A DNA stretch of 62,911 bases, filler included, from Kipferlia bialata (lineage: Eukaryota): the NCBI GenBank assembly GCA_003568945.1. It is 5 parts of 5 records of this genome, joined end to end, with 100 filler letters (N's around TTAATTAATTAA, not from the genome) between each part and the next. Parts side by side here need not be neighbours in the genome. Positions count along the whole stretch, not along the records: positions 1 to 17,993 come from BDIP01000498.1; 4 more parts are not named here. The stretch is one strand, 5' to 3'. Position numbers and translations under genes: made by a program. Below, one piece after another: positions 723-28,811 of this stretch. Below the pieces are notes generated by a model, which was given only the letters and a program-made list of their open reading frames with translations, was not told the origin of the DNA and did not search any database. The first letter of the stretch is position 1; every line of letters starts with the position of its first letter.

Positions 723-3095
723 CTACCACGCCCCCAGCTGGCTGGCCCCGCTCTTCTTGATTGTCTTGTACACATACCAGCAGCACCCAGCCACCCCCCC
801 GATGACCAGAAGGGTCCAGAGGGCAGAGTGCTTGGACCGGGCCTCAACCTGGGGTGAGGGGTACATATATTGCGATAAGTAGTATCGACTCCACAGTCTC
901 TGCCTACCTGAGCCGTGATTGCCTGGAACGCTGCCTCGAGCGTGGCCATCCTCCTGAGCAGCAGGGTGAGCCTGGCCTCCATGTCCTCGGCACCCTGCCT
1001 CAGGGTGGTCAGCTCATCCTCCTGGGCCTCGTACTTGGACGCCATCCTGCGGTGGGGGGTGTACAAGGCTGATACACAGGTACTGTTCCTATATATATGA
1101 GACTGTCCCATACCTAGCGTGCTTTGCTGCAGCTGTGTCGAGCCTCTTGGTCAGCAGGTCCACCTGGCTGGTGAGGTCTCTCTTTGTGGCCTCGTAGCTC
1201 TTGTCAAGGGCACTCTGGGTGGCAGCCTGGTCCTTCAGCTGGGGTCAGGGGGGGGGGGGTATACATACACAGTGTATACACTAATAGTATCACCCTCACC
1301 TTAGCCTCTGCCTCTGCCACCTTGGCAGCCAGGGAGGTGGCTGTCCCCTGCACTGAGTCCAGTCTCTGTGCCATGGTCTCTAGAGAGGCCTCGAGGTCTG
1401 AGGTGTCACACACACACTCAGAGGCAGTGGGTGTAGGGGTGGAGGTGGATGGGGTCTCTGCCTCTGCCTCAGGGGTGGGCTCAGGCTGCCACAGGTTCTC
1501 TCTGTCTCTCTCCTTCTGCCTCTGTCTCTCCTCCTCCAGCAGTCTCTGCCTCTCTCTCTCTTTCTCTGCGGCGGCCTCTCTCTCTGCCCTGGTGGGTGTG
1601 GAGGCTGTGTCTCTACTTCTCTCCTCCACCTCTGTCTCCCCCCCAGGCACCAACAGATCCTTAAGCCTATCCTTGGAGTATGACCCCAGTCTGGATGACC
1701 TGCCCCCCCTGCTGCTGGTCAGAGTCACACTCATAGAGGCCACGTCCATGGCATCCACAACACCCCCAGTCATGGCAGTCACACCGAAGTAGCCAGTGCC
1801 GGGTAACACAACATTCTCAAAGTACAGCACGTTCTCCCAACGGCCGGTGGTCCTGGAGTGAGGGTGGCGGAATAGACACAATGGATTGAGCCTGATAGTA
1901 CCTGAGGGTTCATATCAATGACATATGTATACTAGACACTGATGTACCACCGCTCTCTGCCACTGGTACCTGAGGTCCATGTCGACTGTGAGCACCCCCT
2001 GCTTGTATGTGATCAGGACATGGAAAGGGGCCTTGGTGTTTCTATGGGTTAGAAAGGGTAATAGCGAGAGAGACACTGATACTGATACACACTGACTGCA
2101 CCTGAACCGTATCTGCTTGGACCCCAGCTCTGTGAGTGCCCCGTCTGTGGAGTGGTCATAAGCAATGGTGCCGTCATTGACAACGGCAAGAACCGGGGGG
2201 GGGGGGGAGGAGTGTTAGTAGAATGAGAGAGCAAGACACGGGGTATACATATATACCTTAGGGTTGTCTCCGGACATGTCGTTGTCGAATGTCTCGAACC
2301 CAATCATCAGTCCCTTCCACATGTCAGGGGCGCCGTACACAGGACCTGGGGGTGAGGCATGAAGATAGAGAGAGACTCACAGAGAGAGAGTTCACTCACC
2401 GTCTCCTGCCTCCTCCACAAACCAGAATGCCATTCCGTCTGCCCCTATGCTCCTCTGGCCTGTGATCTGCATGGCCAGCTCAACCTGGGGTGGGGAGAGA
2501 GAGAGAGAGACGTGTCATGACGATAGAAGAGAGAGGCAAGTGTCCCTACCTCGAACCCGTCGGCATGGGCAAGGGCCTTGGTCCACACACCACCCCTCTT
2601 GCCCTTCTCGGCAGGGGTCAGCCTGGGGGTCAGACACACACAGAACAGCACTCAGACTATATACACATGAACGCATGGTTGATCTCAACAAGAGAGAGAG
2701 ACCCACCTGATCTTGTCGTCTGACACCACAGCTGACCCATTGAGGGTGAGGTGGGCTGTGTTGGACTGGGACAGGAAGGGGGGGGAGAAGCTGGGTCAGG
2801 ATGGGGAACGGAGTACAAGAAACTTGTCATTGACAAGTGATAGGATGCATTGTCGGTGTGACACATACGGAATGGATACATCAAGAAACGGAACACTGAC
2901 ATTCCAACACCTATCCCCTTGTATCATGTGACCATTAGCATTGGTATAAGTGAAAACGCAAGACTCGGTACCGGTACCGGGACCGGTACCAACTCCATGT
3001 CATAACCCCTACCTGTGTAAGGCAGACTCACAATGGACACCAACAGCTAGCAGCAGCACAAGGGCCACACACAGTGGCGCCACGTGACTGTGCAT
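723..3095 (-). CDS. L-type (legume-like) lectin cargo receptor, ERGIC-53/VIP36 family, multi-exon
   Basis: Spliced product: signal peptide MHSHVAPLCVALVLLLAVGVHC, then SFSPPF, RLTPAEKGKRGGVW, GADGMAFW, GPVYG, FETFDND and GYFGVTAMTG motifs, a coiled-coil stalk, a C-terminal TM (LWTLLVIGGVAGCCWYVY) and tail KTIKKSGASQLGAW; TAG at 723-725. Confidence 0.85.
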
Positions 3096-9035: not shown

Positions 9036-10414
9036 GACACAAGAGCATCACGTCTTTCTGGGTGCACTCCCTATCAATGCCAAAGGTGTGTGGTCTGTTG
9101 CTGCATTAATCACTCTGCCTAGACACTCACACGAGCGTGTGTGTTGTATCTTCCGTTTAGTTCAGTCACAGGGTTACTTCGGACCTATGTCTCTATCTCT
9201 ATCTCTATCCCTAACCCCAGGCTGACCGTGCCAACCCCCTCTCTAGGGGTGACAGTGAGAGGGTGTCCGAGGCAGAGGACATGAGGGGGAGGGAGGAGTC
9301 GACAGAGACCGAGGAAGGGGTCTTTGCGAGTGAGTCGGAAAGAGAGAGGGAGAGAGAGAGAGAGGGTGAGACTGGCACTGGGTTGGAGAGGGAAGACGGG
9401 AGAGAAGGGGAGAGAGAGGAAATGCAGCGCAAGAGAGACATATTTGTCAGAAGTGCCGCTGGGTACTGTGTGGCCACATTCCTATTAGGTGCGTATATGT
9501 GTATTTGGTGTGCTGTTGGTGGCCCAACTCATCATCTTGCCTCTCTCTCTCTCTCTCTCCCTGTCTCTTATGTCCAGGCATTGGCGACCGTCACCTTGAG
9601 AACCTCCTCCTCGACTATGAGGGCAGACTGTTCCACATCGACTTTGGGTTCATACTCGGTATGTGTCAGTCTATATTGTAACTGGTTACTTTACTGTATA
9701 CTGGCTAGGCATACTCTAGTGCACTTTCTTCGAGTCAATTGCCGATATTCTTCACCATCTGACCCCCAGGCCGTGACCCGAAGCCCCTCCCCCCGCCCAT
9801 GAAGATCAACAAGGACATGGTGCTTGCAATGGGTGGACCCACCAGCCAGGTACCCGCTTGTATATACAGTGACTTGTCTATATTTGTTTATGTATTACAT
9901 ATATGTGTCTGACCCCCAGGGCTATGCCCGCTTCCTGTCCCTGTCCTCCGAGGCCTATAACATCCTGAGGCGGAATGCAGGGACAGTGGTGGCCACGCTC
10001 AAGCTGTGCGCCGCAACAGGTATGAATGCCACATTGCAATCGCTTGAGTGTGCACATGTGTCTCCCTGACCCCCAGGCATTGAGACTCTGCAGGCCGAGG
10101 ACGCCTCGTCCTTCCAAGATACGGTGGGTAGATACAGACTGGAGCTCAGTGACGAGAGAGCAGGGGCACACTTCAGAACAAGGTGGGGCAGATACTAGTG
10201 TGTATCTACCCATGATTGGACATTGTGGACGTAAACATCCCCTTCTCTCTCTCTAACTGCCAGGCTGAAGCACAGTGTGGATGCCCTGTTCCACTTTCTC
10301 TCTCTCTCTCGTTCTCTCTCTCTGACTGCCAGGCTGAAGCACAGTGTGGATGCCCTGTTCCCTGTCATTCTGGACCACTTCCACAGGCTGGTCCAGAACT
10401 ACTGGAGGGCATGA
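9036..10414 (+). CDS. VPS34: Class III phosphatidylinositol 3-kinase, C-terminal part of the kinase domain only
   Basis: Spliced: [54 protein letters not shown]...AYNILRR...[11 protein letters not shown]...[14 protein letters not shown] and the C-terminal YW are Vps34 signatures. Confidence 0.92.
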
Positions 10415-10655
10415 GGTGTATCACTGTCACTCTAATTGAGCACTTGTGGAACAGCGATACTTATACTGAAACAGGTCCAGAACTACTGGAGGGCATGAGG
10501 ACGCTATCCTTTTAGTATAACTCTAATAGAATACAGCTCTTGGAACATGGTAACATTATGATTCTAGTTGTACAGATCATTCACTTCCTGACACGGTAAC
10601 AAAATGAATGCTTTTCTACAGTATGAAATTGTGCTCTCTAAGAGGCCACATGATG

Positions 10656-10785
10656 TGCAGCTCCAGGTCTCCTACCCATATGGTTCACAGAGACCCTGGG
10701 CATCAACAGTATCTGATATACAGATACATGTATATACATCAACTGGCAAGAGAACCCTGGTGAGTCACCCACCTTCAACGCTGCA
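10656..10785 (-). promoter_or_regulatory. Candidate type II SECIS element, split by a predicted 77-nt 3'-UTR intron (10696-10772)
   Basis: After splicing: UGCAG-CGU-UGAA-GGGUCUCUGUG-AA-CCAUAUGG-GUA-GGAGACCU-GGAG-CUGCA. This gives stem I UGCAG/CUGCA, a GA/GA core, an 8-bp stem II, AA 11 nt above the core and an apical mini-stem. Confidence 0.7.
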
Positions 10786-10809
10786 TGCTGTTTGATGGAC
10801 CAATCTCCT

Positions 10810-11091
10810 CTACTTGAGTAGTTCCCTGATGGTCTCTACTATCCTACTTGCGGTCGGGTACCGATTGGAGGATCCCTAGATGAGCAGACAGAGAACATCA
10901 TATGAATTCAACTCCCTACTACTCAATCAGTATCCCAGTCTGAATGTATCGCTCACCCTGGAAAATACTGTCTGGCCGTCACATGATATGTCAAAGACAC
11001 CATAAGCGTCAGTCTGGGATGTAGTGACCTGTGGTGGGGGAAAGCAGGAGGGGTAATGTGGAGAGAGAGAACCAGTAGGAAGAGAGAAGAT

Positions 11092-11126
<35 letters not shown>

Positions 11127-11352
11127 TGCCGACCTCCGCCTCAGGGAACTCCCCCCTCAGAGTATCGGCAAGGGTATAGACATACCGACTGACACCTCAG
11201 GAGAAGGTGAACTGAACGTGAGAGATGACTCTTACTAGATAAGAGAGAGATGGTTAGAGAGAGAGGTGGGTGGGAGGGAGGGGGGGGGGGGGTAATGTAG
11301 ATTCATATATGCCCTGATACAACTGGCTAGGTACCTGAATATCAATGAGCAT
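10810..11352 (-). CDS. SelW/SelT/SelH (Rdx) family selenoprotein, 77 aa; exons 11352-11335, 11211-11134, 11028-10957, 10875-10810
   Basis: Three phase-0 GT-AG introns give MLIDIQFTFSUGVSRYVYTLADTLRGEFPEAEVTTSQTDAYGVFDISCDGQTVFSRGSSNRYPTASRIVETIRELLK*, with TGA at 11197-11199. Matches the Rdx pattern xxxUG...L...FP...GxFxIxxDGxxVFS...YP. Confidence 0.88.
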
Positions 11353-11687
11353 CTCTGTTGCGCACTCCGCTAGGAGACAGTCAAGGCCATCTCTATTCGT
11401 GTCTGCTGCACCCCTAGCCAAACACAGCTGAGGGGGGTCTCACATGCTCGACGAGCAGAATGGACAATTCACCTTTCTACTGTATACGTGCTTCTGACTG
11501 CGAGAGATACCCTCCAGGCGGTATGGAGCTGGGATGCATCAGCCTGGACAGTGTATGCAGTGTCTCCTTCACTCATCACTGTCTGACTACCACAGCACTT
11601 ACCCCCGTATCTGGAGAGAGTAGGACACCCTAGCTGACTGACCTCGTGGCACCCTTGGTGTATCTGTACCAGCATTACCAGTGAGAG

Positions 11688-14509
11688 ATGGTCCACAGGA
11701 CAGTGGTCGTGACTGGGGGCTCAGGGTTTGTGGGCCAGTATGTATGTGCCGCAGTACACAATGCAGGTGAGGGCTGACCCCATGTATATCGCGTTAGTAT
11801 TCCCTGTTAAGAGACTTCTCTATCCCCCCCCCCCCCTCCTGTCAACCTTCCCCTCATCCCTAGGCTACAGACTGAAGGTGCTTGTCCGCCCCACCTCCGA
11901 CACCTCCCGCATCCTAGTCCCCTTTGAGCCAGTACTAGGCAATGTCAACGACACAGAGTCGATGCAGAAGGTATGGATATGCACAAGGATGTATTCTATT
12001 TAGTTGTAGGTACCCTCTATTCTCTCTCCCCTCCCCCCTCGCCCCAGGCCTTCTCCGGGTGCCATGCTGTCATCCACCTGGCCTGTCCCTCGGCATGGAG
12101 TATGCTCAGCAGCCCAGGGGTGGTGGACGTCATACAGGTATGCTATATAGCGTGTGTACACTAATTAGCCAAGTAATTTGGGGTTGTCCATGTCATACAG
12201 GTATATACAATATATATATCTACATATTTATAGGACGTTGGCAACTGGAGGAGACATGTGAGTACTATGGGCTATCACCATGTGTATTTTCACCCTCAGG
12301 TTGGGACTGAGAATGTCATTGCGGCATGTAAGGCAGTGGGGGTGCCCAGGCTGGTGTACATGTCATCGGCTGCGGCAACAGGTACGTACATGATGTATCC
12401 ATTATATATAAGTATACACAGATCAGGACTCGCTTTCTCTCACGGTAGGAGGCTCAGCCGAGCCCTGTCCCCAGCTGCCAGAGAGGCCTGACCCTACGCG
12501 GTGTGGGGACATGTACTACGCTAGAGGTATATATGTATATCATGCAACATATGTATGTGATATATTCATTGTACTACAAGACAGACACTCCCCTATCTGA
12601 CATACTCCTTACCCCCAGGCAAAGCCCTTGCAGAGCTCTCCGTGCTAGAGTATGCCAACTCTCTCGGGGACCTTGCTGGTGAGTAGCCATATATATATAT
12701 ATGCAGCATACGTGCATTGATACCTCTTGTCCTACTCTCTGACCCCCAGCCCCCTCCGACACCTCCAGCGACTATGTGGCCCCCAGCGTCATAGACAGTG
12801 AGGACAGTCAGGCACCCAGGGTGGTCATCATTAGGCCTGGGGAGGTGTTCGGTCCACATGACACAGGTGGGTGGGTATATATATATTAATATTTATACTT
12901 CAGTATGTAATACACCCACTCCAGGCCACATCACGTCCTCTGACTTTGTGTCCCTGGTCCCCACCTCCTCCCCCCCTCTGCCTGTGCTGGTGCCAGACGG
13001 GGGGGTCACGGCGGTGGATGCTAGGTATACCTATGTACATATCAATGACTTAATAATAGTGACTCACAGCGGTGGATGCTAGGTATATACACATATATAC
13101 ACATATATACACATATGTATAAACACAAAAGTGTGCAACGTCTCCTATCTGACCCCAGAGATGTAGCCCAAGCCACAGTTGCAGCCATAGAGAGGGGGAG
13201 GCATGGTACCATATACAATCTAGGTATAGGGGTGTGTCAGGATACACAGATGTCTTAGGGGCATAGACTATCTACGCTAATAGCTTACATATAGGGGGAG
13301 AGAATGTGACCATCCGCGAGTTAGCCAGACGCAGCCAGTGCCTCATGGGTGTCTTTGGGGTGGGTGTCCATACCCTTGACCTCTCTGCATGTTTATCCAC
13401 TCTCTGACCCCCAGCTCATTGTGGTGCCCAGTCCATGGCTGACAAGGACAGTCATCAGGGCAGGTATATAATCATACATTCTTATGGTATGTATGGTGGT
13501 GTATAGGTCTGATACCCAGGAGAGTCAGGGCAGCTACACTACTCTATTATATGTGTATACCATGTGTATCTTTGTATAACCAATGCTTATATGTATCCAG
13601 TCACAGTTATGGTCATCCACCTCTTTCCATGTTTCTCACCCTCTAGGCATGGCCCTCCCATGGCACCCAGCATGGGCCGTGACAGGCCACTATGCACAGA
13701 GGTATTTACAGATGTATATCACTATATCTGTGTTGACAGTCTCACCCCCAGATACTGGCTACTGGACTGCACCTCTAGTTACAGAGACCTAGGCTTCTCC
13801 CCGAGGTCTCTAGACCTAACCCTCTATGACACACTCTCCTGGCTGTGTGAGAGTGGGGGGATGGGCAAGAGGTAGATAGTTACGGATATAGATATCAAGT
13901 GTATATACAAAGGGTCACCTTCTCTATTCACTCAAACTAGGTTCCGCTCCCGCAAGCCCTCTGCATCCAGTCTGTCCAGACACTCCCAGGCAGCGTTGAA
14001 GGTGGGGCATATGTATATGTGTGTATATATATATATGTGTATACGTATATATAGGGATCGACTAGATTTACCAGTCTGTCCAGACACTCCCAGGCAGCGT
14101 TGACGCTAGGGGTATGTCATAGGACTCTGGTAGATCTTGTCTACCAGTCTAGTGTCCATCTGTATGTATGTCTGCTTCCCGACTTACTCCCAGGTGCACC
14201 TGAGTGCCGGGTCTGTCCCCCCCACCCTGCATGGGCCATCAGTCGGTATCACAGATGTCACAACACTCCCTCTCAACACTGCAGTGCACAAGTTCGACCC
14301 CATCAGGTGACAGTGAAGGACTACACTATAGTGATGTTATTGATATGTAGAATTGATTTGGTTGGGCAACCTCAGCCGTTGACTCATTACATTGTTGATA
14401 TGTATTATGTATTAATGATATGCACATATATGTGATACATATGCATATCCCTCTGATACCCAGGTCAGTGGACGAAGAGGAGGAGGGTGGCAGGGGCATC
14501 GGGAGGTAG
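11688..14509 (+). CDS. Extended SDR, NAD-dependent epimerase/dehydratase (HpnA / dihydroflavonol reductase / 3-beta-HSD-like), many introns
   Basis: MVHRTVVVTGGSGFVG Rossmann motif, GCHAVIHLA, GTENVIAACKAVGVPRLVYMSS, YARGK (YxxxK), RPGEVFGPHD, VDARDVAQA, RDLGFSPRSL. Confidence 0.85.
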
Positions 14510-14781: not shown

Positions 14782-17240
14782 ATGGGAGATTGTACGTGGG
14801 AATGGTACCATTATATGTTGAGTTTCATGTGCCGCAGTAGAATATAAGTGTTTGTGAGCACATACCTGTTGTGTCTGTCGTTTGTGGTTGAGATTAGTGA
14901 CATCAAGTATGACGTGGTCAGGCAAGTCCCTCACCCCCAGGTGCTAACTGCCCAAGCAGAGGAACATGCGGAAAGGCCCAGGGTATGTGGTGTTGTACCC
15001 TATATGTGATGTTGACGGTCTAATAGCCCAGTCTCACAGGAATCAATAATCTGCTTCATTTGATGTGGGCCATTGATTATATTGATCCTTGTCTCACAAC
15101 CAGCCCAGGACGCCAAGCCCGACCCATGTGCTGGATGCCCTAGCAGGAGCGCCTGTGCCTCTGCTGGCAAGGGATGTGGAGGCAAGCCCCAGGTATGTGA
15201 GCCCTGTATCGATGTGTTGTCTCTTTGACACTGATGAGCATCTGAGACGCCACTCTCATGCATCAATGTACATCGACACAGTGTTATCTGTGCTACAATA
15301 CACTACCGTATCTTACCCACAGGAGCCTGCCTGTGAGAACGCCGGGTCCGACAAGTGTGCAGGGTGCCCCAGCAGGTAACCATTAGATGCATTAACTATT
15401 TATCGAAATACATATTGATTTCATATTTCTACTCCTGTCTCACCCTCAGGGCCACCTGTGCCAGTGCCAAGGGTGCCGCTGCCGCCGCCCCCAACCCCAT
15501 CCACGCCAGGGTCGCCGAGCGCTTCGCCAACGTCAAGGTACACATTCATATTACTCTCTCTCTATACATATACATATTACCTATCCCATTGTATGTTCTA
15601 CTATTTAGTGTTGCTCTGGTTCAGGGAACCAATACCCCCCCCCCCGTTGGCTAGTATGTCTATCTCTCTCCCTCACCCCAGAACGTGATTGTCGTGCTCT
15701 CCGGCAAGGGAGGTGTTGGCAAGTCCACCGTGGCCGCACAGCTCGCATACCACCTCGGAAGGGCCTATGGTGCCCAGGTATATTCTCTCGCTTCTGCGTA
15801 TATGTGTAAACTAGCCTCTCTCTCTCACTGCCTTTCGGTGCCTCCCCTTACCCCAGGTCGGTCTCCTTGACATCGATATCTGCGGACCCTCTGTGCCCAC
15901 CCTCACCAGCACCAAGGTATAGCATCTCTCTCTTTCTCTCCCTCCCCCCCGCTCTATCTCTGGTTCTTAACCCCTTACCCCCCTCTCTTCTATTCTTTCT
16001 ATCTCCCCCCTAGGGCCACGAGATCCACAACTCCGGCCTCGGCTGGGAGCCCGTGATGGTGAACGAGAACCTCAGCGTCATGTCCATCGGATACATGCTG
16101 GCAGACGATGACGCCGCTGTCATCTGGAGGGGACCCAGGTAGACAAGCGAATGAATATATACAGTGTATAAATATATATATATATATACATGTGTGTATA
16201 TCCCTCACTCCCAGGAAGAACAGCATGATCCAGCAGTTCGTGACCGAGGTGTGGTGGGGTGAGCTCGACTACCTCATCATCGACACCCCCCCAGGTACAC
16301 GCCTAGTGCATATATATACATTTATATAGCAACTATCTCATCCCCCCCCCCCAGGTACAGGCATAGTGCATATATATACATTTATATAGCAACTATCTCA
16401 TCCCCCCCCCCCTCACCCCAGGCACCTCCGACGAGCACCTGTCCATCCTCAACCTCCTCACCCCCTCCCTCAAGAACAAGCCCTGCGGAGCTGTCATCGT
16501 GTCCACCCCCCAGGTACACACACTGCACTAGCTGCCCCCTTTCTATCTCCCCCCACCTCTCTCACTCCCCACCTCCATTCACCCCCCTCTGCCTCTCTCT
16601 ATATCCCTCTCTCCATATATATCTCCCCTCACCCCCAGGAGGTGGCCCTTGCCGATGTGCGCAAGGAGATCAACTTCTGCCACAAGGTGACCCTGCCCGT
16701 GTTTGGTGTCGTTGAGAACATGTCTGGCTTCGTGTGCCCAGGCTGCAAGACTGAGACCACCATCTTCCACCCATCCAACGGAGGTGAGGAACAGTGTAGT
16801 GTGCATACCTCTCTCCCTCACTCTCTCTCCCTCACCCCCAGGTGCCAGAGGCATGGCCGAGCGCATGTCTGTGCCTTTCCTTGGCAGACTCCCCCTTGAT
16901 ATGCACCTGGTTAGGGCATCCGAGGAGGGCAGGTACTACTATCATAGTATATACACACACCTTCATCATGGATTTGTATTCTATCCACTGACCCCTCTAG
17001 GTGCTGGGCCGGTATGGTTGCCCAGATGTCCGACATCCCAGCCGACGAGGCTGCCCAGAAGGAGCAGGTATGGCCCATGTGCCTCTCTCTCTCTCTCTGT
17101 CTGTCTCTCTCCCCCCCCCCCTCTCACCCCAGGTCGATGACTTCTACGGCAACCCAGGTCTTAGGATGTTCTCCGAGACCGTGGACAAGCTCCTCATCAA
17201 CCTGCATGGCGTGGCCCCTGAGAAGGAGCAGGCCTGCTAG
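14782..17240 (+). CDS. NBP35: Cytosolic Fe-S cluster assembly scaffold, Mrp/Nbp35 P-loop NTPase
   Basis: N-terminal Cys motifs, [86 protein letters not shown] at 17238-17240. Confidence 0.95.
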
Positions 17241-18161: not shown

Positions 18162-21100
18162 TCAATCTCACCCGAGGACTCTCTTCATGGTCACTCTGGG
18201 ACCAGCTCCTTCCGTCGCGATGACTTTGGCACCAGCCTAGCCATCGACGCCCACTCTGACGGGTCTGCCCGACTGTTATGCGGCAGTCCCAATGGGGTGG
18301 GGGTGTTCACTAGGGGTGCTGGGGCAGACGGTGTGTGGGCTGAGGTGTCCTCCCCATTCAACAGTGCAGCAGAGGTGGTAGGGGTGGCTGTGTACGGGGA
18401 CTGGATGACAGCAGGTGGGTGCATATCTCTCACACTATCACTATCACACTATCACTATACACACATATATATGTGTATATATATGTGGGTACATTACGTG
18501 ACTGGATGGCAGCAGGTGGGTATATACACATGGATATGCATGGGAGTAAATTATGTCCTCCTATAGAGAGATATTCTGTATACATGTCATTCACAAATAG
18601 TATTAGATAGTATAGAGATGGCATATATATATGGCATACACATGGCATATTCTTACTTTGATATAGGGGGCAAGGCGGGTGGCAATATGTATGTGAGTAA
18701 CAGGACTTTCTTTTGTACATGTTTCTATGTATCCATAATCCATGTCAATATCTATCCGTATATATATATATATATATATATATCCATAGATTTATATCTA
18801 AGTACATATATACTGTATATATGCCTATATCTACTTCTCATCCCAGTCGGACCCAAGGGTGGACGCACCAAGTTGGCTGGGGGGTATAGGGCAGACTTCT
18901 ATGGAGACGTGTCAGCTGTAGCTCTTGGAGAGGTGGATGGCAAGGTATGTATATATATCCATTTGTTGCTATTAGTATGTGTATATATACTCTTTCATTT
19001 GTGTATATACTATAATTATGTCTCTATACCTGAGGTGGATGGCAAGGTATTATAGATAGTAATGTATATATATGTCTCTATACCACTTATATCTAGTCTG
19101 TACTAGAGGTGGGTGGCGCAGTATTAAGAAATGTATCCATATATGTCTGTGTGCTGGGGTGTGATCATAGCCTCCACCCTTTGTGCATTACATATTCTGT
19201 CTGTTTTGGTCCTACTATGACTCCCTTTCACCCCAGATGACAGCTGTGTATGTAGCGAAGGAGTATGGCAACTACGTTGCCTTGACCTGGCAGCAGTGGC
19301 CAGATGGATGGGAGTTCCATTCTAGGGTATACTATGGTAGGAGCTATAGTGCCCTTCTGCTACCCCATGACCACATGCTGTTTGGGGACACCCTCAGGCT
19401 GCACTCTCCCAACACCCTGACAGAGGAGGGGGACCCCATAGCAGGGACCGGTAGCTGGGTGGAGGTGGCTGAGATAGACACGGGCTGCTACTCCAGAAGG
19501 GAGTGGGCCTACTCTCCCTCTGTGGCTGCTGATACCTTCCTAGTGGTGGGTGACCCTTATGCAGAGGAGGCTGTGCAGTACCAGGGGGTAGTGGCTGTGA
19601 GGGAGATATCTGCCCCTGGTGTTGGTGGTGTGACTGCAGTGATCGAGGCCACCCCAGGCGAGGTGTGTGGGGAGACCTCTGTCACAGTCTCTCTGTCTGA
19701 CACTGCGTCTGGTGCATATGGGGGCGATGTGCTATCTGCACTGCTAGGCCTAGTGGTCACAGTCAACGGGGCATCCTTCCACGCACCCACACCGACGGGA
19801 GAGACAGGTACCTATATACGTGTGCGTCTATTCTGGGACAGTGTAGCTATATATGTGACATGGAGTAGAACATGAGCCATTGCAGCATTCTATCACATCA
19901 AGAGCTTGCTTCTTACAACAGGTGTGTATTCCGTGAGTCTTCCCCTGCCTAGCACCCCAGGCCCCCATTCCATCTCTGCTACCATCAACGGTGCCCAGGT
20001 TGGCAGCACCTCCCTCTCCCTCTCCCGTACCGTGGACGTGGCACTCTCCTCCCTCCACCTGCCGTTAGAGGTAGCAGTAGACACTCCATTCTCTGCTAAG
20101 GTTGTACCAAGGGATCACTGTGGGGCCATGCTCACCGGACTCTCCCTTACTCTCTCCACCGAGGCTGATGGTGTCATTAGTACTCTCTCAGATGCCTCTG
20201 GATACACAGTGTCGGGTCTGACCGTGCCCAGTCCCCAATCTTTGTGCTACACAGCCACTGTGGTAGGGTCTCCCTCTGACACTTGGTCCAACTGTGTATC
20301 TGGGGTGTCTGGTGTTGTCTCAGAGCTACCGACAGAGCCATACCTAGACGCGGATGTTAACGGAGAGTGGCTGGCCTTTGCCTATAGCGGTAGGGACGTG
20401 TCCCTGTTCCACATGCTTGATGGTCACTGGGTACCACACAGCACACTCCCAGAGACTGTGCACCTGTCATTCGCCAAGGACATATATCTGTTCACCCACT
20501 CACAGGAGACCCTCTCTGAGTATAGATATGACGCGGAGGGTGATGTGTGGACACTGATGTCGACAGGGCCTCTCAGAGGAGACAACTTTGCCACCAACGG
20601 AGACTCAGCTGTGGGGTTCTACAACTACGATGCCGATGACCACTCCTCCTGGGGCCAGTACGGACACGCCCTGGACAGGTACATGTATATGTATCTATAT
20701 ATGTATATCTATACTTGTGGATATGGATATATCATGTCCCCTTTCTCCTCTGCCGATTCCTTGTATATCGTCTGTCTGTCAACATATATGTCCCCAATGC
20801 TGTCTTGTCTCTCAGTCTCTCACCTCCAGGTATTACTCCGTCAGATTCGACCACCCTGAGGTAAGAGTGGTTTGCGTAGCAGAAGTATCCGACTGATATA
20901 CCCTTGAGTGCCAAATGCTGTCCTGATATTTCACCATTGATCATTCTTTACCATCTCAATTCCTGTATGTTTCTCTATCCAATACTGACACTCACTGCAG
21001 ACAAGCATAAGCGGGATAGACTCATACAACCGTATCTATGGGGCCGCTGCTGGTGCTGGGTGGTTTGTGCTGACGGCCCGCAACTCCTCCACATCTTCAT

Positions 21101-24100
21101 CCACGTCGTCTGACCGCCAAGCCGTGGTACAGCTCTACGAAGACGGACAGGTGTGGCGGGACGAACCCTATGTCTATTACAATGACCACACCGACTCACT
21201 AGGGGATGGTATAGCGCTCTCGCCAGACTCTCTGTATGTGGCGTACTCCAACACTGTATCGAGAGACCAAGGGAGAGTGATCTTGAGGAAACGCGCAGCG
21301 TGTGGATTTGGAGGCGAGGACTGGTGCTGGGGGTACGACGGAACCGTCTACAGCCCATCGAAGATGCCCTTTGCACGCTTTGGTGAGCGTGTGGTTATGG
21401 GTCAGGGTGTGGCGGTGGTGACATCTCTCGAGAACAGAGCCTACGTGTTCTCTGAGCCTGTGTTGGGTAAGGTCTGGGAGTACATTACACGTCTAGACGA
21501 CGTTGGTTCTGTGGAGACAGACGGCGTGTCCCTGCTCATTAGCTCTCCCTCTGTCTCCCCTGCGGGTACTAGGGTCATACCGCTAGTGGCAGAGGTTCCT
21601 GATGGGATTGTGGGTACCCTTGACACCAGCCTGCTCACCTATGCCGGCGAGTGTGCCGAAGTGACTGTGTCTGTGGTAGATGCAGAGGGAGACGCATACA
21701 CTCCCGACATAGCTACGCCCATCTATGGCCTCAGGGCTGTGTGGTCGAGTGCTGACAACGATGACATGGAGTGGTACGGGGCTGAGATCACTAGTGACCC
21801 TGGTGTGTATCAGATGAGGGTGTGTGCTCCAGACGAGGCAGAGGTGGCACACACACTGCATGTGTACATTGGCGCCACTCTGCTAGTTTCGGCTGATGTT
21901 ACCCCTTCGGACACGCCAGATTCTGCGCTCTCTGAGATATATGTACACCCCACACAGTCGGTAGGGGTGCCCATCTGGATTCATGTTGTCAACCATGCAC
22001 GTACATACCCGCGTCTATCTGTGTATAACGCAGATGGTGAGAGGGTGGGGGAGTGCACTACGGCGTCGACCGGGAGGGACTACTCACTCACACTGGGGGA
22101 GGAGGGGACATACACTGCCTCGCTGTACAGGTCATACTGCGACCCTAATGAGTGTTCCGCATACACTGTGGTCTCCTTCACAGTCTCTGCCTCAGTACCC
22201 TTGCATTCGGTCCCCATACCCTCAGAGTACCCGCAGTCCATCGTTGCGTATGGTGCTAGCGATGATTCTGACTGGTTGATTGTCGGTGTCTCTGACGTTG
22301 CGAGTGATACATCCGCATCTGCAGTCCTCGCCTTCCAGAGACTGACCAACACGTACTATCAGTTCCACTCGGCGTTTGATGTCGAGGGAGTGACAAACAT
22401 AGTACTCCATGAAGAGACAGTGGCGCTTGGTGTCTCAGAGAGAGTGGTAGGAGGGGTGGCTGGGGCTGGTGCAGTGTATGTACACAGACTAGACACGGAC
22501 TCAGACACCTGGCCTCTCCTGGCAGTCGTCGTCGCAGCAGACGAAGACCACCAACCCGTGGCTCCTGGTCTAGGGACAATCATTGGCGTCCATGATGACA
22601 CCCTTTTAGTGGGAGGCACCTCATGTCTCATCTACAGGGCTGACCTGTCAATGGCTAGTGATGTGTACGGGTCGATCATCCTCACTGAGGACGACCAGCT
22701 GTACCTCAAGCCCCCTTACTCCTCGAGAAAACCACTCTCGGCTGTGTCTATTGATGCCTCAGGAGGAGCCTTGGCACTTGGACTGTCGGCAGACAAGAGG
22801 GCTCTTCTGATGGACACGACCAACGGGGACACGTGGTGGGACGAGTACTCCCAGGTACCCATACTGATATGTTGACATATAGCTGTGGAATGTGGAGTGT
22901 GTCTGTATGGAACCCAATTTCACACCAGGAACTGTTTAGGAGTGCAAGCCACACCGGAGGATCACACGTTGCAGTGAATGGCGACAGACATTTAGTATTC
23001 TGGACATACGAGACAGAGGCCTTCTGGGCCGACTATGAGTATGCGGATGACACCAGTTATGACATTGGCAGCTACTACCTGGCCGCTGCGTCATACACAC
23101 CAGGTGCTAATGTGACTTATACACGTGATGTAGCCTTGGAGACGATCCTTGCCGGGCCAGTCAGGCAGGTTCAGAGTGAGGGAGATATGCTTGCAGTGAT
23201 CTACGAGAGTGGTACCTTGGATGTATTCACTATCCAAGAGGATGGTGAGGGGGGGCTGGTTCTGAGTGACCCTTTCCCCTTGTCTGAAGTGGTTGGCTCC
23301 TGTTCTCATGTAACTGCCTTGGAGGACACCCTCTATGTCCTGGCAGACGGGGTCCTCTCTGCCTTGCCATACTCCGCCCTTCCCACTGATTCAGAGGTCA
23401 CTGCCTCCCTCACCCAGCCTGATGTCTCTGGCGGCACCTGCTCCTCTAGTGATGTCACATTCAGGCTGTCTCTGGACGGAAGTCCCTATGGTGAAGTGGT
23501 AGATGTCAGTAGGCTCGGAGTCTCAGTCGGGGATCAACTATTCCCCGCTGTGTATACGGGAGGCTCCACCTATACCGCCACTGTCCAGTACCCAAGTGCT
23601 GGAATAACCTATGATCTGGAAGTGAAGAGAGGGGAGAGCGTGATCGCATCGTCTACAGTGACCCTTGAGGCCGGTGTAGTATCTGCCACCATGTCTAGAG
23701 TGCTTGTACCTGATGTCACTAGTGTCGCTGGGTTCTCCTTCGTGACCCAGCCGTCCAACGCTTGTGGGACTCTACTGCAAGGCCCTGATGTGTCTGTGAC
23801 TATCGAACAGTCAGGCACAACCCTTCAGACTCTCTCTGCCACTAGCGCCAGTGGCTACAGCGTTCACTCCGGTGCTCTCGAGGCTGGTCTCTGCACCATC
23901 AGGGCAGAGTGTGGGGGTGTCAGCTGGGGGGTCGAGGTTACAGTGGAGGAAGACACTGCCGTTGGCACCCCGCTTGCACGAGCAGACTCTACTCACTACC
24001 GCATAGTTTCCTCAGCTGCTGATGGAGAGTGGCTGGTGGTCTCCTACGAACAGCCACATAATGACAGTTGGAAGACCGATCGCACCGTCTCTGTCTACCG

Positions 24101-27100
24101 CTGTCCAGAGGGCAGTGCATCCTGTGTGTGGCACTCCTCCCTGACGTCACCCTGTCCATACCACAGTGTCTTTGGGGAATACATAGCCCTCTCAGGTGAC
24201 TGGATTGTGACGACACTGTACCAGAACCCGAGTGTCATTTATAACCGAGATATGAGGGAGATGCGAATGGCCGCATACAAGTACAACGCCGTGTCTGACC
24301 AGTATGAACTCCTAGACAGGCCTTTCCTCCGCTCGCCTACCACAGATGCCCTGAGTCCTCTAGTTGCGCTGTCAGAGGCGGATGATGGGGATTCTCCAAC
24401 GCTCTTCTTGTCATACAACCAGGTTGTCTATGAGTTCGCTATTGACACCAATAATGAGTGGCAATTTCTCAGCGGAGTGGTGGGTGAGTACACGAGTACA
24501 GATGCCTATACCATGGCTATTGGTGGACCGTCGGTGGCTTTAGCGTCTATTGGTGAGGGGTCTCTTGTGGTTTCATATGGAGACGTACAACAAACGATGG
24601 AGTGTCCAGACAGAGCAGAAGAGGCCACTTTTGGAACCTCAGTAGCCCTCAGCCCAAGTGGGCTCCTGCTTGCTGTCTCCAACGCTGACCGAGTTCATGT
24701 CTACTCCCTCGCTAGTGATGCATTCTCCTATGTCCACTCACTCCTTCTTCCTGAGGGATACGAGGTCTCGGACTATCAGGCCTTGGCCTTCGGGAGCGAG
24801 ACCCAGCTCGCCATTGATGTGAACACCTGCATATTCACAGCCTTCCTTGGGTCAGACCAATGGTATCTATCACACACCCCTACTTCCCTGCCGTCCTGTG
24901 TGGGTGGGTGTGAGGTGGGTTCAGGACATGATATGTTTGGACACAATGGACAAACCATCATTTCCATGCAGCGGATAGATGGAGGGAGGGGCGCTGTCTA
25001 TGGCCTACCCTTTGTCACCCCTCTAGTCCTACCCACCCTGACAGCCACTCTTGTGGAGGTGTCAGAGGTCGCTGAGTGTGTCCCATTCACTGTCGAGTTC
25101 ACTTTGTACCTTGAGGATGGGTCCCAGTACCGAGATGACGTCTCACCCTCCCTGTCTGCCACCTTAGGGTCAGATGTCTTCCACCCCTATTACCGCACAT
25201 CCTCTGGAGACTATGCTGTAGACCTGACTGTTTCAGCATCAGCGACCACTCCCACTGTGTCCACACTACTGGTGTCTCTACAGGGTGCGAGTGTGGCCAC
25301 TACTGACATCAGTGTTGTCAGTCAAGTGGCACCGTGTGCCTTAGAGTCTCAGTACCTGTATGATTACTCCACCTGGATAGAGCTCGCCCCCATCCATGAC
25401 ACGTGTGGTAGAGACTACACTGCAGAGGCTACCAGTGTGGTTGTGCGTGACCTTTCTGGAGAGACAGTCATGCAGTCGTCGCCATCCTCCTCCCTACGCA
25501 AGTCCCTTGACGACTACTTGTTGCAAGGGGAGTACACTGTGACTGTTACGGTGGATGGCACGGTTCAGGCGGGTCTGCCGCTGTACGTGTACAGAACTGC
25601 GGTTCCTGGACTCAATGGAAACCCCGATGTATACTGTTCTGCATCCAGTGTGACCCTGACATGGGCTGCACCCTCATTCCCAGCTGGTGGTGCTGTCAGT
25701 GCTAGTCTGGTACTGACAGACATGGCAACGGGGGTGGTGGTGGACTGGGACGCCGATGTCAAGTGGAGGCTCAACACCGACTACGTCTGGTCATCTGCTA
25801 CTCGGGATGGGGCTGCCTTTAGCCTGGGTGGTCTCACCGCTCCATCTGTTCTCAATAGCGGCCGCTTCGTACAGGTCTGGGTCTCAGGTGGACACCTCCT
25901 TTCAGAGGTCATCCCGGTCGGTATAGAGGTTGACCTAGTTGCAGGGGGGAGAGTGGTCCTGACCGGCGTTGATATGGATCCCATCACAGAGTCATCCAGC
26001 TGTGGGGACACACCTGTCTCTCTGTCTCTTCAGGGTGTTACCGTTGACACCCCTCTGGCTGCCGAGGTCGATGTCTGTGTAGAGTATGTGGGTGGGGACG
26101 GATGTGCAGACCTTTCACTGGAAGATGGCCGGTACTATGGGGTGCTCCGGTCCCCCGATGTCCCTGGGTCCTACGTCTTACGTGTATCCGCAAGTGGTCT
26201 GACCCTGATAAGTGACAGTACAGTGGATGTGGAACAGTCAATGTCCTCTTTCACCATCATATCGCAAGACAGCACCTTCTCAGAGAAGAGAGAGAGAGCG
26301 TACTTCACTGTAGAGCCAAGGGATGGGTGCAACAATCCCATGGCCAGTGAGGGTACTGTCATTGTCCGTGACTCCGATGGGACTGCTTACAGGTGCAGCA
26401 CAGAGAGTGGGTATACAGATGATGCGTGGGCTTGGTCCTTCTATCCCTACGATGAGTCTGTATACACTATTGAGGTGTATCCTGGAAGCACTGGTTCGAC
26501 CGACCCCATTGCGGAAGCAGTCCACTATGTCGGTTGGACAGTCACTGTAGACGATTCCACCTCCTACAACGTCGGCCCAGGCTCTGGCATCATTGGGTTA
26601 CCCGAGAGAGGCCCAGACGGTTTACAGGTGATGCTAGAGCATGGGTCCCAGGTGACCTGCAGCGTAGTGCTGTATGAATGCAGTGGGGCACCTCTAGTCT
26701 TGCCAGACGTGTCTGTCTACTGGGGCCACCTGAAAGAGGAGGAAATCCAACTTAGTTACGACGAGGAGACAGAGACCTATCCAGTGGAGATACCTGTCTG
26801 GTCAATTGCCGATGCATACTATGGAGACGGGCTCAACGTAGCCATTTCAGGTACACGACGGGTATTCTATTCTAAGTCGGAGCCTTAATAGTGTGTGTCA
26901 CTTCCAAGTCTTACACCAGGTGTACAGCTCTTTAGGTCCTCTGAGTCCTACTTCGCTGGGGTCGAGGTTGCTGGGTCTCGAATTGCTCGTATCAGAGCAG
27001 ACTCTATGATCATCTCCGCACCTGATAATAACTTCGACTTTGCACTCTACGACACGAGTGGTGATATGGTGTACAGTGCAGATGTTGCAGAGGAGTGTGT

Positions 27101-28811
27101 GGGCGGGTGGGGCAGTGACCTCTCCTTACCTGCGTCCTTGAGCGACAATGGAAGCCAGTACACCATCTCGGTACCACGTCCTTCGGAGGTAGGCACTTTC
27201 ACCTTCAACCTGGCTCTTGGTGGTGTTGTGGTGTACTCGAGGGACTACGAAGTGATAGCGCCATACGATCCCGCTAGTTCCCGTCTTCTATTGCGCGACA
27301 CGGGCTATGTGAGAGATCATGCAGTGGCTGGGGAGCCCTTCGACGTATCTGTTCAGCTGGTTGATGCCAACGGTGGGTACGCCAGCGCTGAGACAGTCAG
27401 TATGGTGGTGTCGGACCCAGAGGGAAACAGTGTGTCGGTGGTATCGACAGTGGCATCAGGCTCTAGTGGTTACTACGAAGGGGAGGTCACCGTGCCTTCA
27501 GCCGGGGAGTACACAATTAGTGCTGAAGTTGCGGGCAGCACTCAACCTCCTATCAGTGACTCACCTCTAACTGTGTATGCTGGTGACTTTGGCCTAGACA
27601 TTGGACACTACGGCACTATGTGGATGGCTGTCCTAGAGAGTGGGTCCTCCCTTGTCGCCCCCACTGCGGCTCTTCCAGGTACTGACACTGACCCTAGCCG
27701 GCTTTATACCGCTGCTGTGAGTTTTGTCGATGCAGAAGGTCTCTATCCTGACTCGTCTATGCGGAGAGCCACTGTATCCGTCGACTTCTTCTCTGTTGAT
27801 GCCGTTGGAGACATGGAAGACGTTGTTGCGTCCCTGTCCTGCGACTATGATCAGTCTGGAGACGGTGTGCTCACCTTCACTGGGTATGCCCCACAGGATA
27901 TGGCCCAGTACACCCTGGCTGTCTCTGTTGGCGATGCTGCTCCGCTCTTCACCCAGGGTGTGGCCGTGTCTGTACCACTGACAGTCGGGGGCGTTGATGT
28001 CGCAGTCGCCGGTGTATCATGCGAGGAGGGCGATGATCCCCTTGAGATCACTCTCACGCAGGCCAGCTCCTCCCAGACTGTCACGTTTGTTGTCGATGCC
28101 TTCAGTCCAGACTTCACTGATAGCACGCCATTCAGCACCGGTAGTAAGGAGACTGTACCGTGTGAAGTTGACCTTAGCGATCACATCTGCGGCACGTGGA
28201 ACGGGTCTGGGTGTCAGCACCCAGAGTATCAGGGGGTTGGTGTGTACATGATGGAAGTCACAGCCCCTAACGTGTCGTCTGAAAGAACTCTCTTGTTTGA
28301 GATTAGTTGTGACGATGAGCCCCTGTTCTCCCAGAGTGTACAAGTGGCCCCTACCCCTACAGACCCTGAGTCCTCTCTTCCTATTATGCCCATAGCAGTT
28401 GGGGCGGTTGGAGTTGTGGGTGTGAGTGTGGGTCTGTGTGTGTGCTGCTCTGGGGATGACGAGGATAGTGTGAAGGAGGAGGAGGAGGATAAGAGTCAGC
28501 AGAAACAGGAGGAGGGTGTCCACGTGCCCTTCCCCCAGCCAGTACCCGTGGGACTGATACCCATACAGCTTGTGCCGGTGGAGCAGATGCCAGTCCCTGG
28601 GTTGGTGTATCCTCCCTCTGACCTCTCCAACCTCTCTCATCTCTCTGGTCCTGCCCCAGTGGCACTGGACCCCGGCCTGGGTGACGCTGGTGACACTGGT
28701 ACTGACACTGGTACGGAGGGGTGTCCGTCAGAGGCCGAGACTGAGGCTAGTCAGGTCACTCTGTACTGCAGTGATGTGGAGGGAAGCGAGACAGATACGG
28801 TGTCTGAGTGA
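18162..28811 (+). CDS. Giant type-I surface protein (about 3000 aa) with FG-GAP-like propeller repeats and Ig/filamin-like domains, 5'-truncated
   Basis: Repeated blades (DDFGTSLAI, SLGDGIALSPD, FGERVVM, FGEYIALSGDW, FGTSVALSPSG, GAGAVYVH) alternate with T/V/S-rich beta-sandwich segments (PRDxCG, VDANG). C-terminal TM IAVGAVGVVGVSVGLCVCC. Joins ORFs 19183, 19906, 21067, 22833 and 26895 via short introns. Confidence 0.8.

What the first reader, a model, noticed from the sequence alone, without database searches (positions are those of the whole stretch)
10810..11352. Hidden 77-aa SelW/Rdx selenoprotein with TxxU instead of CxxU
Seen: four exons joined by three phase-0 introns give a complete Rdx-fold protein with in-frame TGA (11197-11199) exactly at the family's Sec position. 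It is absent from the ORF track and would probably be missed by automated annotation. Known: SelW/T/H/V normally carry CxxU. Here the motif is T-F-S-U, and the only Cys lies later (DISCDG). Inference: a monoselenol, peroxidase-like (TxxC-type) chemistry without the usual resolving Cys, and a working Sec machinery in this organism.
Basis: partly seen in the sequence, partly recalled or inferred. Interest (0 to 1): 0.8.

Follow-up and report, generated by a model that had tools for sequence, protein, structure and literature searches.

The report
Hidden Thr-x-x-Sec SelW-like selenoprotein gene
An unannotated, spliced and transcribed four-exon gene of the free-living anaerobic protist Kipferlia bialata encodes a 77-residue SelW/Rdx-type protein whose in-frame TGA is likely read as selenocysteine, in an unusual Thr-x-x-Sec motif, and its likely decoding hairpin in the 3' UTR exists only after a further intron is spliced out.

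Summary
On the minus strand, exons 11352-11335, 11211-11134, 11028-10957 and 10875-10810 are joined by three GT-AG, phase-0 introns. They give a 77-residue protein with TGA (11199-11197) as codon 11. A spliced RNA contig from the same organism shows two of the three coding joints and implies the third by its piece lengths. It keeps the TGA exon.

A profile of 30 bacterial SelW-like proteins aligns the spliced protein end to end (38.7 bits; best of 500 shuffles 6.9). The TGA falls on the Sec/Cys column. Thr8 falls on the first Cys, which is Cys in all 165 homologues examined, so the motif is TxxU, not CxxU.

New here: the RNA contig shows a fourth, 77-nt intron in the 3' UTR. Only the spliced UTR folds into a SECIS-like type II hairpin (UGAA/GGAG kink-turn core, 8-bp helix, AA bulge). 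A generic SECIS pattern finds it, with about 0.002 hits expected by chance.

A 100%-identical Nbp35 gene in the window identifies the organism as Kipferlia bialata. Its relative Spironucleus has only SelW-type selenoproteins.

Not tested: the Sec machinery (no genome held), the 3' half of the hairpin in RNA, and the chemistry. Verdict: a real, divergent member of a known family with two unusual features.

The parts
11335..11363 (-). Exon 1: at least 11 nt of 5' UTR plus ATG (11352-11350) and codons 1-6
   Evidence: The RNA contig starts at 11363 and joins 11335 to 11211. Gene model.
11212..11334 (-). Intron 1, 123 nt, GT..AG, phase 0
   Evidence: Joint 11211|11335 in the X2 contig, absent from DNA run X1.
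11134..11211 (-). Exon 2, codons 7-32, carrying the T-F-S-U motif and helix 1
   Evidence: RNA contig piece 11133-11211. It aligns to profile columns of the CxxU motif and the following helix.
11206..11208 (-). ACC, Thr8, at the position of the family's first motif Cys
   Evidence: Aligned column is Cys in 30 of 30, 120 of 120 and 15 of 15 homologues. ACC is at least two base changes from TGY. No other letters appear in the DNA or RNA contigs.
11197..11199 (-). In-frame TGA, codon 11, predicted Sec
   Evidence: Aligned column is TGA in 41 and Cys in 4 of 45 bacterial genes. It is retained in the spliced RNA contig.
11029..11133 (-). Intron 2, 105 nt, GT..AG, phase 0, (CT)n-rich and open in frame
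   Evidence: Removal is implied by contiguous contig positions 108/109 and a 72-nt piece. The joint row itself was dropped by the tool at the repeat.
10957..11028 (-). Exon 3, codons 33-56 (G-V-F-D..F-S-R block; Cys48 at 10983-10981)
   Evidence: This is the best-conserved block against the bacterial Rdx profile. It is the 72-nt side of the joint.
10876..10956 (-). Intron 3, 81 nt, GT..AG, phase 0
   Evidence: Joint 10874/10956 (cut +1) in the X2 contig.
10773..10875 (-). Exon 4: codons 57-77, TAG stop (10812-10810), 37 nt of 3' UTR including the 5' half of the SECIS-like element
   Evidence: RNA contig piece 10772-10874. The R-Y-P and C-terminal helix align to the profile end.
10696..10772 (-). 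Intron 4, 77 nt, GT..AG, in the 3' UTR, 37 nt after the stop. It separates the SECIS core's 5' strand from helix II.
   Evidence: Joint 10694/10772 (cut +1) in the X2 contig, depth 34.9, none in DNA run X1.
10656..10695 (-). Start of exon 5 (3' UTR): helix II, AA bulge, mini-stem, 3' GGAG core strand, helix I 3' strand
   Evidence: Fold of the spliced UTR. RNA contig covers 10695-10668 only. 10667-10656 is read from genomic DNA.
10773..10785 (-). 5' half of the SECIS-like element: helix I 5' strand (10785-10780), loop with UGA (10777-10775), first base of helix II (10773)
   Evidence: The core fits UGAN of the published UGAN/KGAW consensus (passage of PMC3753652).

Best explanation
This is a transcribed, spliced five-exon gene of Kipferlia bialata for a 77-residue Rdx/SelW-fold protein, and its in-frame UGA at codon 11 is likely decoded as selenocysteine.

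Shown: the exon structure, its transcription, the homology, UGA on the family's Sec column, and Thr on the column of the motif's first Cys.

Inferred: Sec insertion would be directed by a type II SECIS-like kink-turn hairpin in the 3' UTR. That hairpin is assembled only when a 77-nt intron is removed. The 5' strand of helix I and the UGA core lie at the end of exon 4. Helix II, the AA bulge, the mini-stem and the 3' GA strand lie at the start of exon 5.

Also inferred: the motif cannot close an intramolecular Cys-Sec selenenylsulfide. The protein would therefore work through a single redox-active selenol. That selenol would be oxidised or would attack a partner's disulfide or sulfenate, and would then be regenerated by an external thiol (thioredoxin or free cysteine) or by Cys48. 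This resembles 1-Cys or TxxC-type thioredoxin-fold enzymes.
For: Gene model and splice sites.

RNA: a 310-nt spliced contig keeps the TGA exon, and no such joints appear in the DNA run.

Family: Pfam Rdx E 1.5e-4. TIGR02174 E 3.5e-6. My own HMM of 30 bacterial SelW-like genes gives 38.7 bits end to end, against at most 6.9 bits for 500 shuffles. A second HMM of 120 database Rdx proteins gives 29.9 bits.

Sec column: 41 TGA and 4 Cys among 45 bacterial genes.

The 66 codons after the TGA stay open across three exons and carry the family's best-conserved blocks.

TGA is not a general sense codon: 0 TGA against 61 TGG and 96 TGY in 4510 codons of seven long ORFs. The Nbp35 gene ends in TAG.

SECIS: the spliced UTR folds with 6-bp helix I, GUUGAA/GGA loop, 8-bp helix II, AA 11 nt after the core, and a CC/GG mini-stem. 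MFE is -23.9 kcal/mol. The z-score is -2.3 against 1000 dinucleotide shuffles. A generic UGAN..AA..GA pattern with helix rules hits it once in the 233-nt spliced UTR. It hits once in 125.8 kb of genomic sequence on both strands and 1.27 times per 125 kb in 30 shuffles, so about 0.002 hits are expected.

Lineage: exons of the Nbp35 gene in the window are 100% identical to the K. bialata protein. The fornicate Spironucleus has tRNA-Sec, PSTK, SPS, SepSecS, EFSec and only SelW-type selenoproteins (passages of PMC2874811 and PMC3916229).
Against: No Sec machinery could be searched, because no genome is held.

Rfam finds no SECIS in the genomic sequence at gathering score or at E <= 10. The spliced form could not be given to Rfam.

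The candidate departs from the consensus. U, not A or G, precedes UGA. The last core position is G, not A or U (KGAW).

I fixed the pattern thresholds after seeing the candidate. A relaxed pattern hits 135 times per window and is uninformative.

The RNA contig stops at 10668, so the last 12 nt of the hairpin are not seen in RNA. Fold stability alone is modest: 23 of 1000 shuffles fold as well.

Curated cut-offs of Pfam and NCBIfam are not reached on the only forms those tools could take.

No close relative was found anywhere, so neither TxxU nor the hairpin is supported by conservation.

The 120-protein HMM aligns residues 19-75 only, not the motif.

The chemistry is untested.
Confidence: 0.7

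Rival explanations
1. The gene is a real selenoprotein, but the spliced hairpin is a coincidence. The true SECIS would lie elsewhere, further 3', or in a lineage-specific form that no pattern recognises.
For: The core is non-canonical: U before UGA and G at the W position. There is no conservation test. The last 12 nt are not seen in RNA. No canonical SECIS was detected in Spironucleus ESTs with ERPIN (passage of PMC2874811), so fornicate SECIS may be unusual.
Against: The strict generic pattern hits exactly here, with about 0.002 hits expected. No other hit lies on the minus strand between the stop and 9900, spliced or unspliced, apart from one chance-level relaxed hit. The convergent neighbour's RNA contig ends at 10495-10500, so little UTR space remains.
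Confidence: 0.15
2. The gene is a decaying or non-coding relic. TGA terminates after 10 residues, and the transcript makes no Rdx protein.
For: Thr replaces the motif Cys that every examined homologue keeps (165 of 165). Library scores are below curated cut-offs. No orthologue is available to show purifying selection. Sec machinery is unverified.
Against: Sixty-six codons after the TGA remain open over three exons with exact phase-0 splicing, and they hold the family's most conserved blocks. The TGA sits exactly on the column where 41 of 45 bacterial genes also have TGA. The mRNA is spliced and present. A SECIS-like element follows the stop.
Confidence: 0.1
3. UGA is read as a standard amino acid (Cys or Trp), by near-cognate read-through or a variant code, giving TxxC or TxxW rather than TxxU.
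For: Some protists reassign UGA (recalled, from no call). Giardia and S. vortens carry Cys at this SelW position (passage of PMC2874811).
Against: There are 0 TGA in 4510 codons of long ORFs, against 61 TGG and 96 TGT/TGC. Three of those seven ORFs end at TGA. The annotated K. bialata Nbp35 protein matches the window's exons under the standard code.
Confidence: 0.05

Closest known systems
Selenoprotein W and bacterial SelW-like proteins (Rdx family: Pfam PF10262, NCBIfam TIGR02174). Solved relatives found with the profile: 3dex, 2fa8, 2oka, 2obk, 2p0g, 2ojl, 2ljk, 2npb.
   Same: The size is about 75-95 residues. The domain aligns end to end. Sec is at the second motif position at the start of helix 1. 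The G-x-F-[DE]-[VI], F-S-[KR] and R-[FY]-P blocks are present.
   Different: The first motif Cys is Thr, so the motif is TxxU instead of CxxU/CxxC. All 165 homologues examined have Cys there. So do all 48 Sargasso Sea SelW-like sequences in Table 3 of PMC1088965. Identity to bacterial members is only 16-32%.
SelW paralogues of the diplomonads Spironucleus salmonicida and S. barkhanus (PMC2874811, PMC3916229)
   Same: Both belong to the same major lineage (Fornicata). A SelW-type protein carries UGA at the Sec position. These are the only selenoproteins reported in S. salmonicida. No canonical SECIS was detected in Spironucleus ESTs.
   Different: Spironucleus genes have almost no introns and use a code in which UGA is the only stop. 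This gene has four introns in a standard-code genome. I could not see the Spironucleus sequences (figure only), so their motif is unknown to me.
Sec- or Cys-peroxiredoxins with the TxxU/TxxC active-site motif
   Same: Both have a Thr three residues before the redox-active Sec or Cys on a thioredoxin-type fold (Table 3 of PMC1088965; table in PMC13188914).
   Different: No peroxiredoxin (AhpC-TSA) model matched. Only Rdx models matched. The Pro and Arg of the peroxiredoxin site (recalled) have no identified counterpart. The resemblance is at motif level only.
Eukaryotic type II SECIS element (Rfam SECIS families; SECISearch3 description, PMC3753652)
   Same: It lies in the 3' UTR, about 234 nt after the UGA. 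It has helix I, an internal loop, a UGAN...GA kink-turn core, helix II, unpaired AA 11 nt after the core, and a mini-stem with a 4-nt loop.
   Different: It is split by a spliceosomal intron between the core's 5' strand and helix II. U, not A or G, precedes UGA. G stands at the W position of KGAW. It is compact (53 nt). Three paper searches found no description of an intron-split SECIS.

Membership tests
Rdx / SelT-SelW-SelH family (PF10262, TIGR02174) | Significant full-length match to the family profile | tested here: met
   My own HMM of 30 bacterial members gives 38.7 bits, E 4.6e-14 (one target), over profile 1-69 of 69; 500 shuffles give at most 6.9 bits. The library models could take only the intron read-through ORF, which lacks exons 1 and 4. 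They gave E 1.5e-4 and 3.5e-6 but stayed under the curated cut-offs: 22.3 against 22.6 bits and 27.2 against 34.2 bits.
Rdx / SelT-SelW-SelH family (PF10262, TIGR02174) | CxxU or CxxC redox motif between strand 1 and helix 1 | tested here: not met
   The second position (U) is met. The first position is Thr (ACC), where 165 of 165 homologues have Cys. The gene is therefore filed as a divergent homologue and a variant of the family, not as a canonical member.
Rdx / SelT-SelW-SelH family (PF10262, TIGR02174) | Thioredoxin-like beta-alpha-beta-beta-beta-alpha fold | tested here: inconclusive
   AlphaFold2 on alignment A1 (read-through form) gave mean pLDDT 48.3 and pTM 0.31. No fold search was made. 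The spliced protein cannot be submitted to that tool.
Eukaryotic selenoprotein gene | In-frame UGA aligned with Sec or Cys of homologues, with a conserved frame downstream | tested here: met
   The UGA is retained in spliced RNA.
Eukaryotic selenoprotein gene | [quoted passage not shown] | tested here: inconclusive
   A SECIS-like hairpin is present only in the spliced UTR. Rfam is negative on genomic DNA. The last 12 nt are not covered by RNA. No conservation or binding data exist.
Eukaryotic selenoprotein gene | Sec machinery in the genome (tRNA-Sec, EFSec, SBP2, PSTK, SepSecS, SPS) | not testable with these tools
   No whole genome is held for the window. The window holds no tRNA. Relatives' machinery is known only from papers.
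Eukaryotic SECIS (type II) | Core UGAN / KGAW forming tandem G.A/A.G pairs | tested here: inconclusive
   The core is UGAA on the 5' side and GGAG on the 3' side. UGAN, K and GA fit. The W position is G.
Eukaryotic SECIS (type II) | A (or G) preceding the quartet | tested here: not met
   U precedes UGA. The 'A preceding the quartet' feature comes from the figure legend of PMC1088965.
Eukaryotic SECIS (type II) | Unpaired AA 10-13 nt after the core, helix II, helix I, extra mini-stem | tested here: met
   AA lies 11 nt after the core N. Helix II has 8 of 8 pairs and helix I 6 bp. There is a CC/GG mini-stem with a 4-nt loop. The 10-13 nt spacing rule is recalled.
Peroxiredoxin (TxxC/TxxU peroxidases) | Match to a peroxiredoxin family model | tested here: not met
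   Only Rdx-type models matched in Pfam and NCBIfam at E <= 10. The likeness is to the motif alone.

The most novel reading that the evidence does not exclude
Selenocysteine decoding here is gated by splicing. The kink-turn core and the rest of the SECIS sit on different exons, so only mRNA that has lost a 3' UTR intron can read UGA as Sec. This would be the first intron-split SECIS. The protein it serves would be the first Rdx/SelW-fold selenoprotein with a peroxiredoxin-type Thr-x-x-Sec site, a lone selenol without the family's partner cysteine. It would also give Kipferlia, and fornicates generally, their first recognisable SECIS.
Probability: 0.4. Interest if true: 0.8.

Novelty: new variant of a known kind. 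Interest (0 to 1): 0.62.

Why it matters
Selenoprotein genes are routinely lost in annotation. The K. bialata genome paper's main text never mentions selenium (0 occurrences of 'seleno'), and no paper in the library links Kipferlia with selenoproteins. This gene would extend Sec use to a free-living, intron-rich fornicate.

It offers a concrete SECIS candidate for a lineage where no canonical SECIS was detected in Spironucleus ESTs with ERPIN.

A SECIS that exists only after splicing would explain why genomic SECIS scans miss such genes. It would also couple recoding to mRNA processing.

A natural TxxU variant of the Rdx fold is a ready-made test of what the motif's first Cys does in SelW-type proteins, whose biochemical function is still unclear.

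Tried and rejected
- Rfam on the whole window at gathering score and on 9800-11500 at E <= 10: no SECIS. This is expected if the element is split.
- Single-sequence searches with the read-through ORF found nothing. These were search for homologous proteins (2366 candidates, none at E <= 10), PDB sequences, 1.84 billion representatives (0 at E <= 0.001) and metagenome contigs (591 pattern matches, none confirmed).
- Own genome not held, so the Sec machinery is untested. The window holds no tRNA.
- No RNA holder was listed as such. X2 was recognised as RNA-derived only by its spliced contigs.
- No RNA contig covers 10509-10664, so the 3' end of the transcript and the last 12 nt of the hairpin are unseen.
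- AlphaFold2 of alignment A1: mean pLDDT 48.3, unusable, so no fold search was run. The Sec to Cys48 distance could therefore not be judged.
- Bacterial-type hairpin right after the UGA: none (z 0.15).
- Relaxed SECIS pattern: 135 hits per window, uninformative.
- Second selenoprotein in the window: I scanned 150 of 157 TGA-containing ORFs of at least 88 aa. Only the Rdx ORF matched a selenoprotein family.
- The protein-atlas search does not take a recoded reading.
- One database query timed out.
- The search of earlier findings returned nothing on this genome or relevant to it.

Full report
**What is in the sequence**

The feature lies on the minus strand. TGA is the reverse complement of 11197-11199. 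It gives 234 nt, 77 codons and TAG. The three GT-AG introns are 123, 105 and 81 nt, all phase 0. The N-terminus reads Met, five residues, then F-T-F-S-U. The single Cys is residue 48.

**Transcription and splicing**

No run is on record as RNA. Run X2, from the same sample as the likely source run X1, holds spliced contigs. A 310-nt contig (depth 34.9) lies on 11363-11335, 11211-11133, a 72-nt piece, 10874-10772 and 10694-10668. The joints 11211|11335 and 10874|10956 are listed. The DNA run shows none of these joints. The piece lengths add up to 310, so intron 2 is removed as predicted. Its joint row was dropped by the tool because it abuts a (CT)n repeat.

It spans 10772-10696 (77 nt, GT..AG) and begins 37 nt after the stop codon.

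**Family**

- Pfam Rdx: E 1.5e-4, 22.3 bits against a cut-off of 22.6.
- NCBIfam TIGR02174 'CXXU_selWTH': E 3.5e-6, 27.2 bits against a cut-off of 34.2.

To test the spliced protein I first fetched bacterial genomes through an unrelated gene of the window. I then searched them with PF10262. Forty-three of 201 genomes of one phylum had a match, in 44 rows.

I built an HMM from 29 of those rows plus one. I had first left out the row with an extra TAG. I looked at that row and the 14 lowest-scoring rows afterwards.

The spliced protein scores 38.7 bits (E 4.6e-14 for one target). The alignment runs end to end: profile 1-69, residues 3-73. The best of 500 shuffles scores 6.9 bits. A second HMM, from the 120 best of 5742 database hits to alignment A1, gives 29.9 bits. 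That alignment covers residues 19-75 only. Identity to the bacterial proteins is 16-32%.

**The motif**

The TGA aligns with the column that is TGA in 41 and Cys in 4 of the 45 bacterial genes. Thr8 aligns with the first motif Cys. That position is Cys in 45 of 45 bacterial genes and in 120 of 120 database proteins. The 120 are the top-scoring hits, so they are biased towards canonical members.

ACC differs from TGT or TGC by at least two bases. Neither the DNA nor the RNA contigs show another letter there.

Passages of PMC1088965 list CXXU for all 48 SelW-like sequences and TXXU for peroxiredoxin. The TxxU observation therefore stands and is unusual for this fold. Cys48 aligns with a variable column; one bacterial member also has Cys there.

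**Is TGA special here?**

Seven long ORFs (4510 codons) hold 61 TGG, 96 TGT/TGC and no TGA. Three of them end at TGA. The Nbp35 gene ends in TAG. TGA is therefore not a general sense codon.

Of 150 (out of 157) TGA-containing ORFs of at least 88 aa, only this one matches a selenoprotein family.

**SECIS**

Rfam finds nothing in the genomic sequence, and no unusual hairpin follows the UGA. The spliced 3' UTR folds differently:
- a 6-bp helix I;
- an internal loop GUUGAA / GGA;
- an 8-bp helix II;
- an apical part with unpaired AA 11 nt after the core;
- a CC/GG mini-stem with a 4-nt loop.

This is the layout of a type II SECIS. Its core is UGAA/GGAG. The published consensus is UGAN/KGAW (passage of PMC3753652).

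The exon junction falls between the first and second base pair of helix II. Helix I's 5' strand and the UGA core are on exon 4, and the rest is on exon 5. The element does not exist in unspliced RNA.

A generic pattern was applied (UGAN; AA at 10-13 nt; GA; at least 7 of 8 pairs in helix II; 5 pairs in helix I). It hits once in the 233-nt spliced UTR and once in 125.8 kb of genomic sequence. It hits 1.27 times per 125 kb in 30 dinucleotide shuffles. The expectation in the UTR is about 0.002.

Caveats:
- I set the thresholds after seeing the candidate.
- A relaxed pattern is uninformative.
- Stability alone is modest: z -2.3, with 23 of 1000 shuffles folding as well.
- U rather than A or G precedes UGA, and the W position is G.
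- The RNA contig ends at 10668, so the last 12 nt are read from DNA only.

Three paper searches found no description of an intron-split SECIS. That covers only the open-access library.

**Organism and context**

An exon of the window's Nbp35 gene hits 'NUBP1/Nbp35 [Kipferlia bialata]' best. Six exon segments of that protein are 100% identical to the window. The window is therefore K. bialata, a free-living fornicate.

Its genome paper reports 124,912 GU-AG introns and never mentions 'seleno' in the main text (passages). Only one paper in the library holds both Kipferlia and selenocysteine or selenoprotein, and it says nothing on Kipferlia's selenium use.

Passages of PMC2874811 and PMC3916229 report that Spironucleus has SelB, SelC, SelD, PSTK and SepSecS. 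Its only putative selenoproteins are SelW paralogues. No canonical SECIS was found by ERPIN. Giardia has a Cys form. A SelW-type selenoprotein in Kipferlia is thus expected for the lineage. The Thr and the split SECIS are not.

**Mechanism**

Shown: gene, transcript, homology and motif. Inferred:
- Sec insertion directed by the spliced SECIS.
- Catalysis by a lone selenol, because the motif cannot form the intramolecular Cys-Sec bond of CxxU proteins.
- Regeneration by an external thiol or by Cys48.

The peroxiredoxin analogy is at motif level only. No peroxiredoxin model matched. The structure prediction was unusable, so the geometry is open.

**Limits**

No Sec machinery search was possible. 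No close relative was found by any search, so there is no conservation test of TxxU or of the hairpin. Selenoproteins are poorly represented in predicted-protein libraries, and the query carried 35 intron-coded residues.

**Verdict**

This is a real, hidden gene. It is a divergent variant of the SelW/Rdx selenoprotein kind, with two unusual and testable features.

Noticed in passing
window 11029-11133, 11212-11334, 10876-10956 (minus strand): All three coding introns are phase 0 and have lengths divisible by three. Intron 2, which is (CT)n-rich, has no in-frame stop, so retaining it would insert 35 residues without breaking the frame.
   Followed up: partly
window 10331-10500 (+): The convergent neighbour has a PI3/PI4-kinase match at 9215-10195 (E 1e-4). 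It appears to end at a TGA at 10412-10414. The last ~27 bases around that stop are repeated at 10474-10500 in its 3' UTR, and contigs fit both places. Its RNA contig ends at 10495-10500, about 170 nt from the last RNA-covered base of the SelW-like gene.
   Followed up: partly
window 11491-12500 (+): The divergent neighbour starts at ATG 11692 and has a GxxGxxG N-terminus. It matches the 3-beta-HSD/NAD-epimerase family (PF01073, E 1.5e-5). An RNA contig shows four GT-AG introns. The observed 5' ends of the two divergent transcripts are only about 128 nt apart.
   Followed up: partly
window 15103-17237 (+): A multi-exon Nbp35/NUBP1 gene has exons 100% identical to the K. bialata protein. The exon I used as query is 56-71% identical to Mrp proteins of Desulfobulbaceae and other anaerobes.
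   Followed up: partly
window 19171-28811 (+): There is a run of very long, nearly intron-free ORFs (234, 327, 628, 1377 and 639 aa) rich in Ser/Thr/Val. Only one has a Filamin/Ig-like repeat match; the others have no Pfam match. They look like a tandem family of large surface or adhesion-type proteins.
   Followed up: no
window 19356-19396 (-): This is the only other hit of the strict SECIS pattern in the window. It lies antisense inside a long + strand ORF. I take it as the one hit expected by chance.
   Followed up: no
window 1117-2214 (-) and 38126-38389 (+): A legume-like lectin (ERGIC-53-type) domain matches at E 3.6e-14. A kinesin motor fragment matches at E 7e-4. Both appeared in ORFs read through TGA, presumably as exons of spliced genes.
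   Followed up: no
L126 (G189:C32:38644-38853): One bacterial SelW-like gene carries an in-frame TAG in addition to its Sec TGA. It may be broken or a sequencing error.
   Followed up: no
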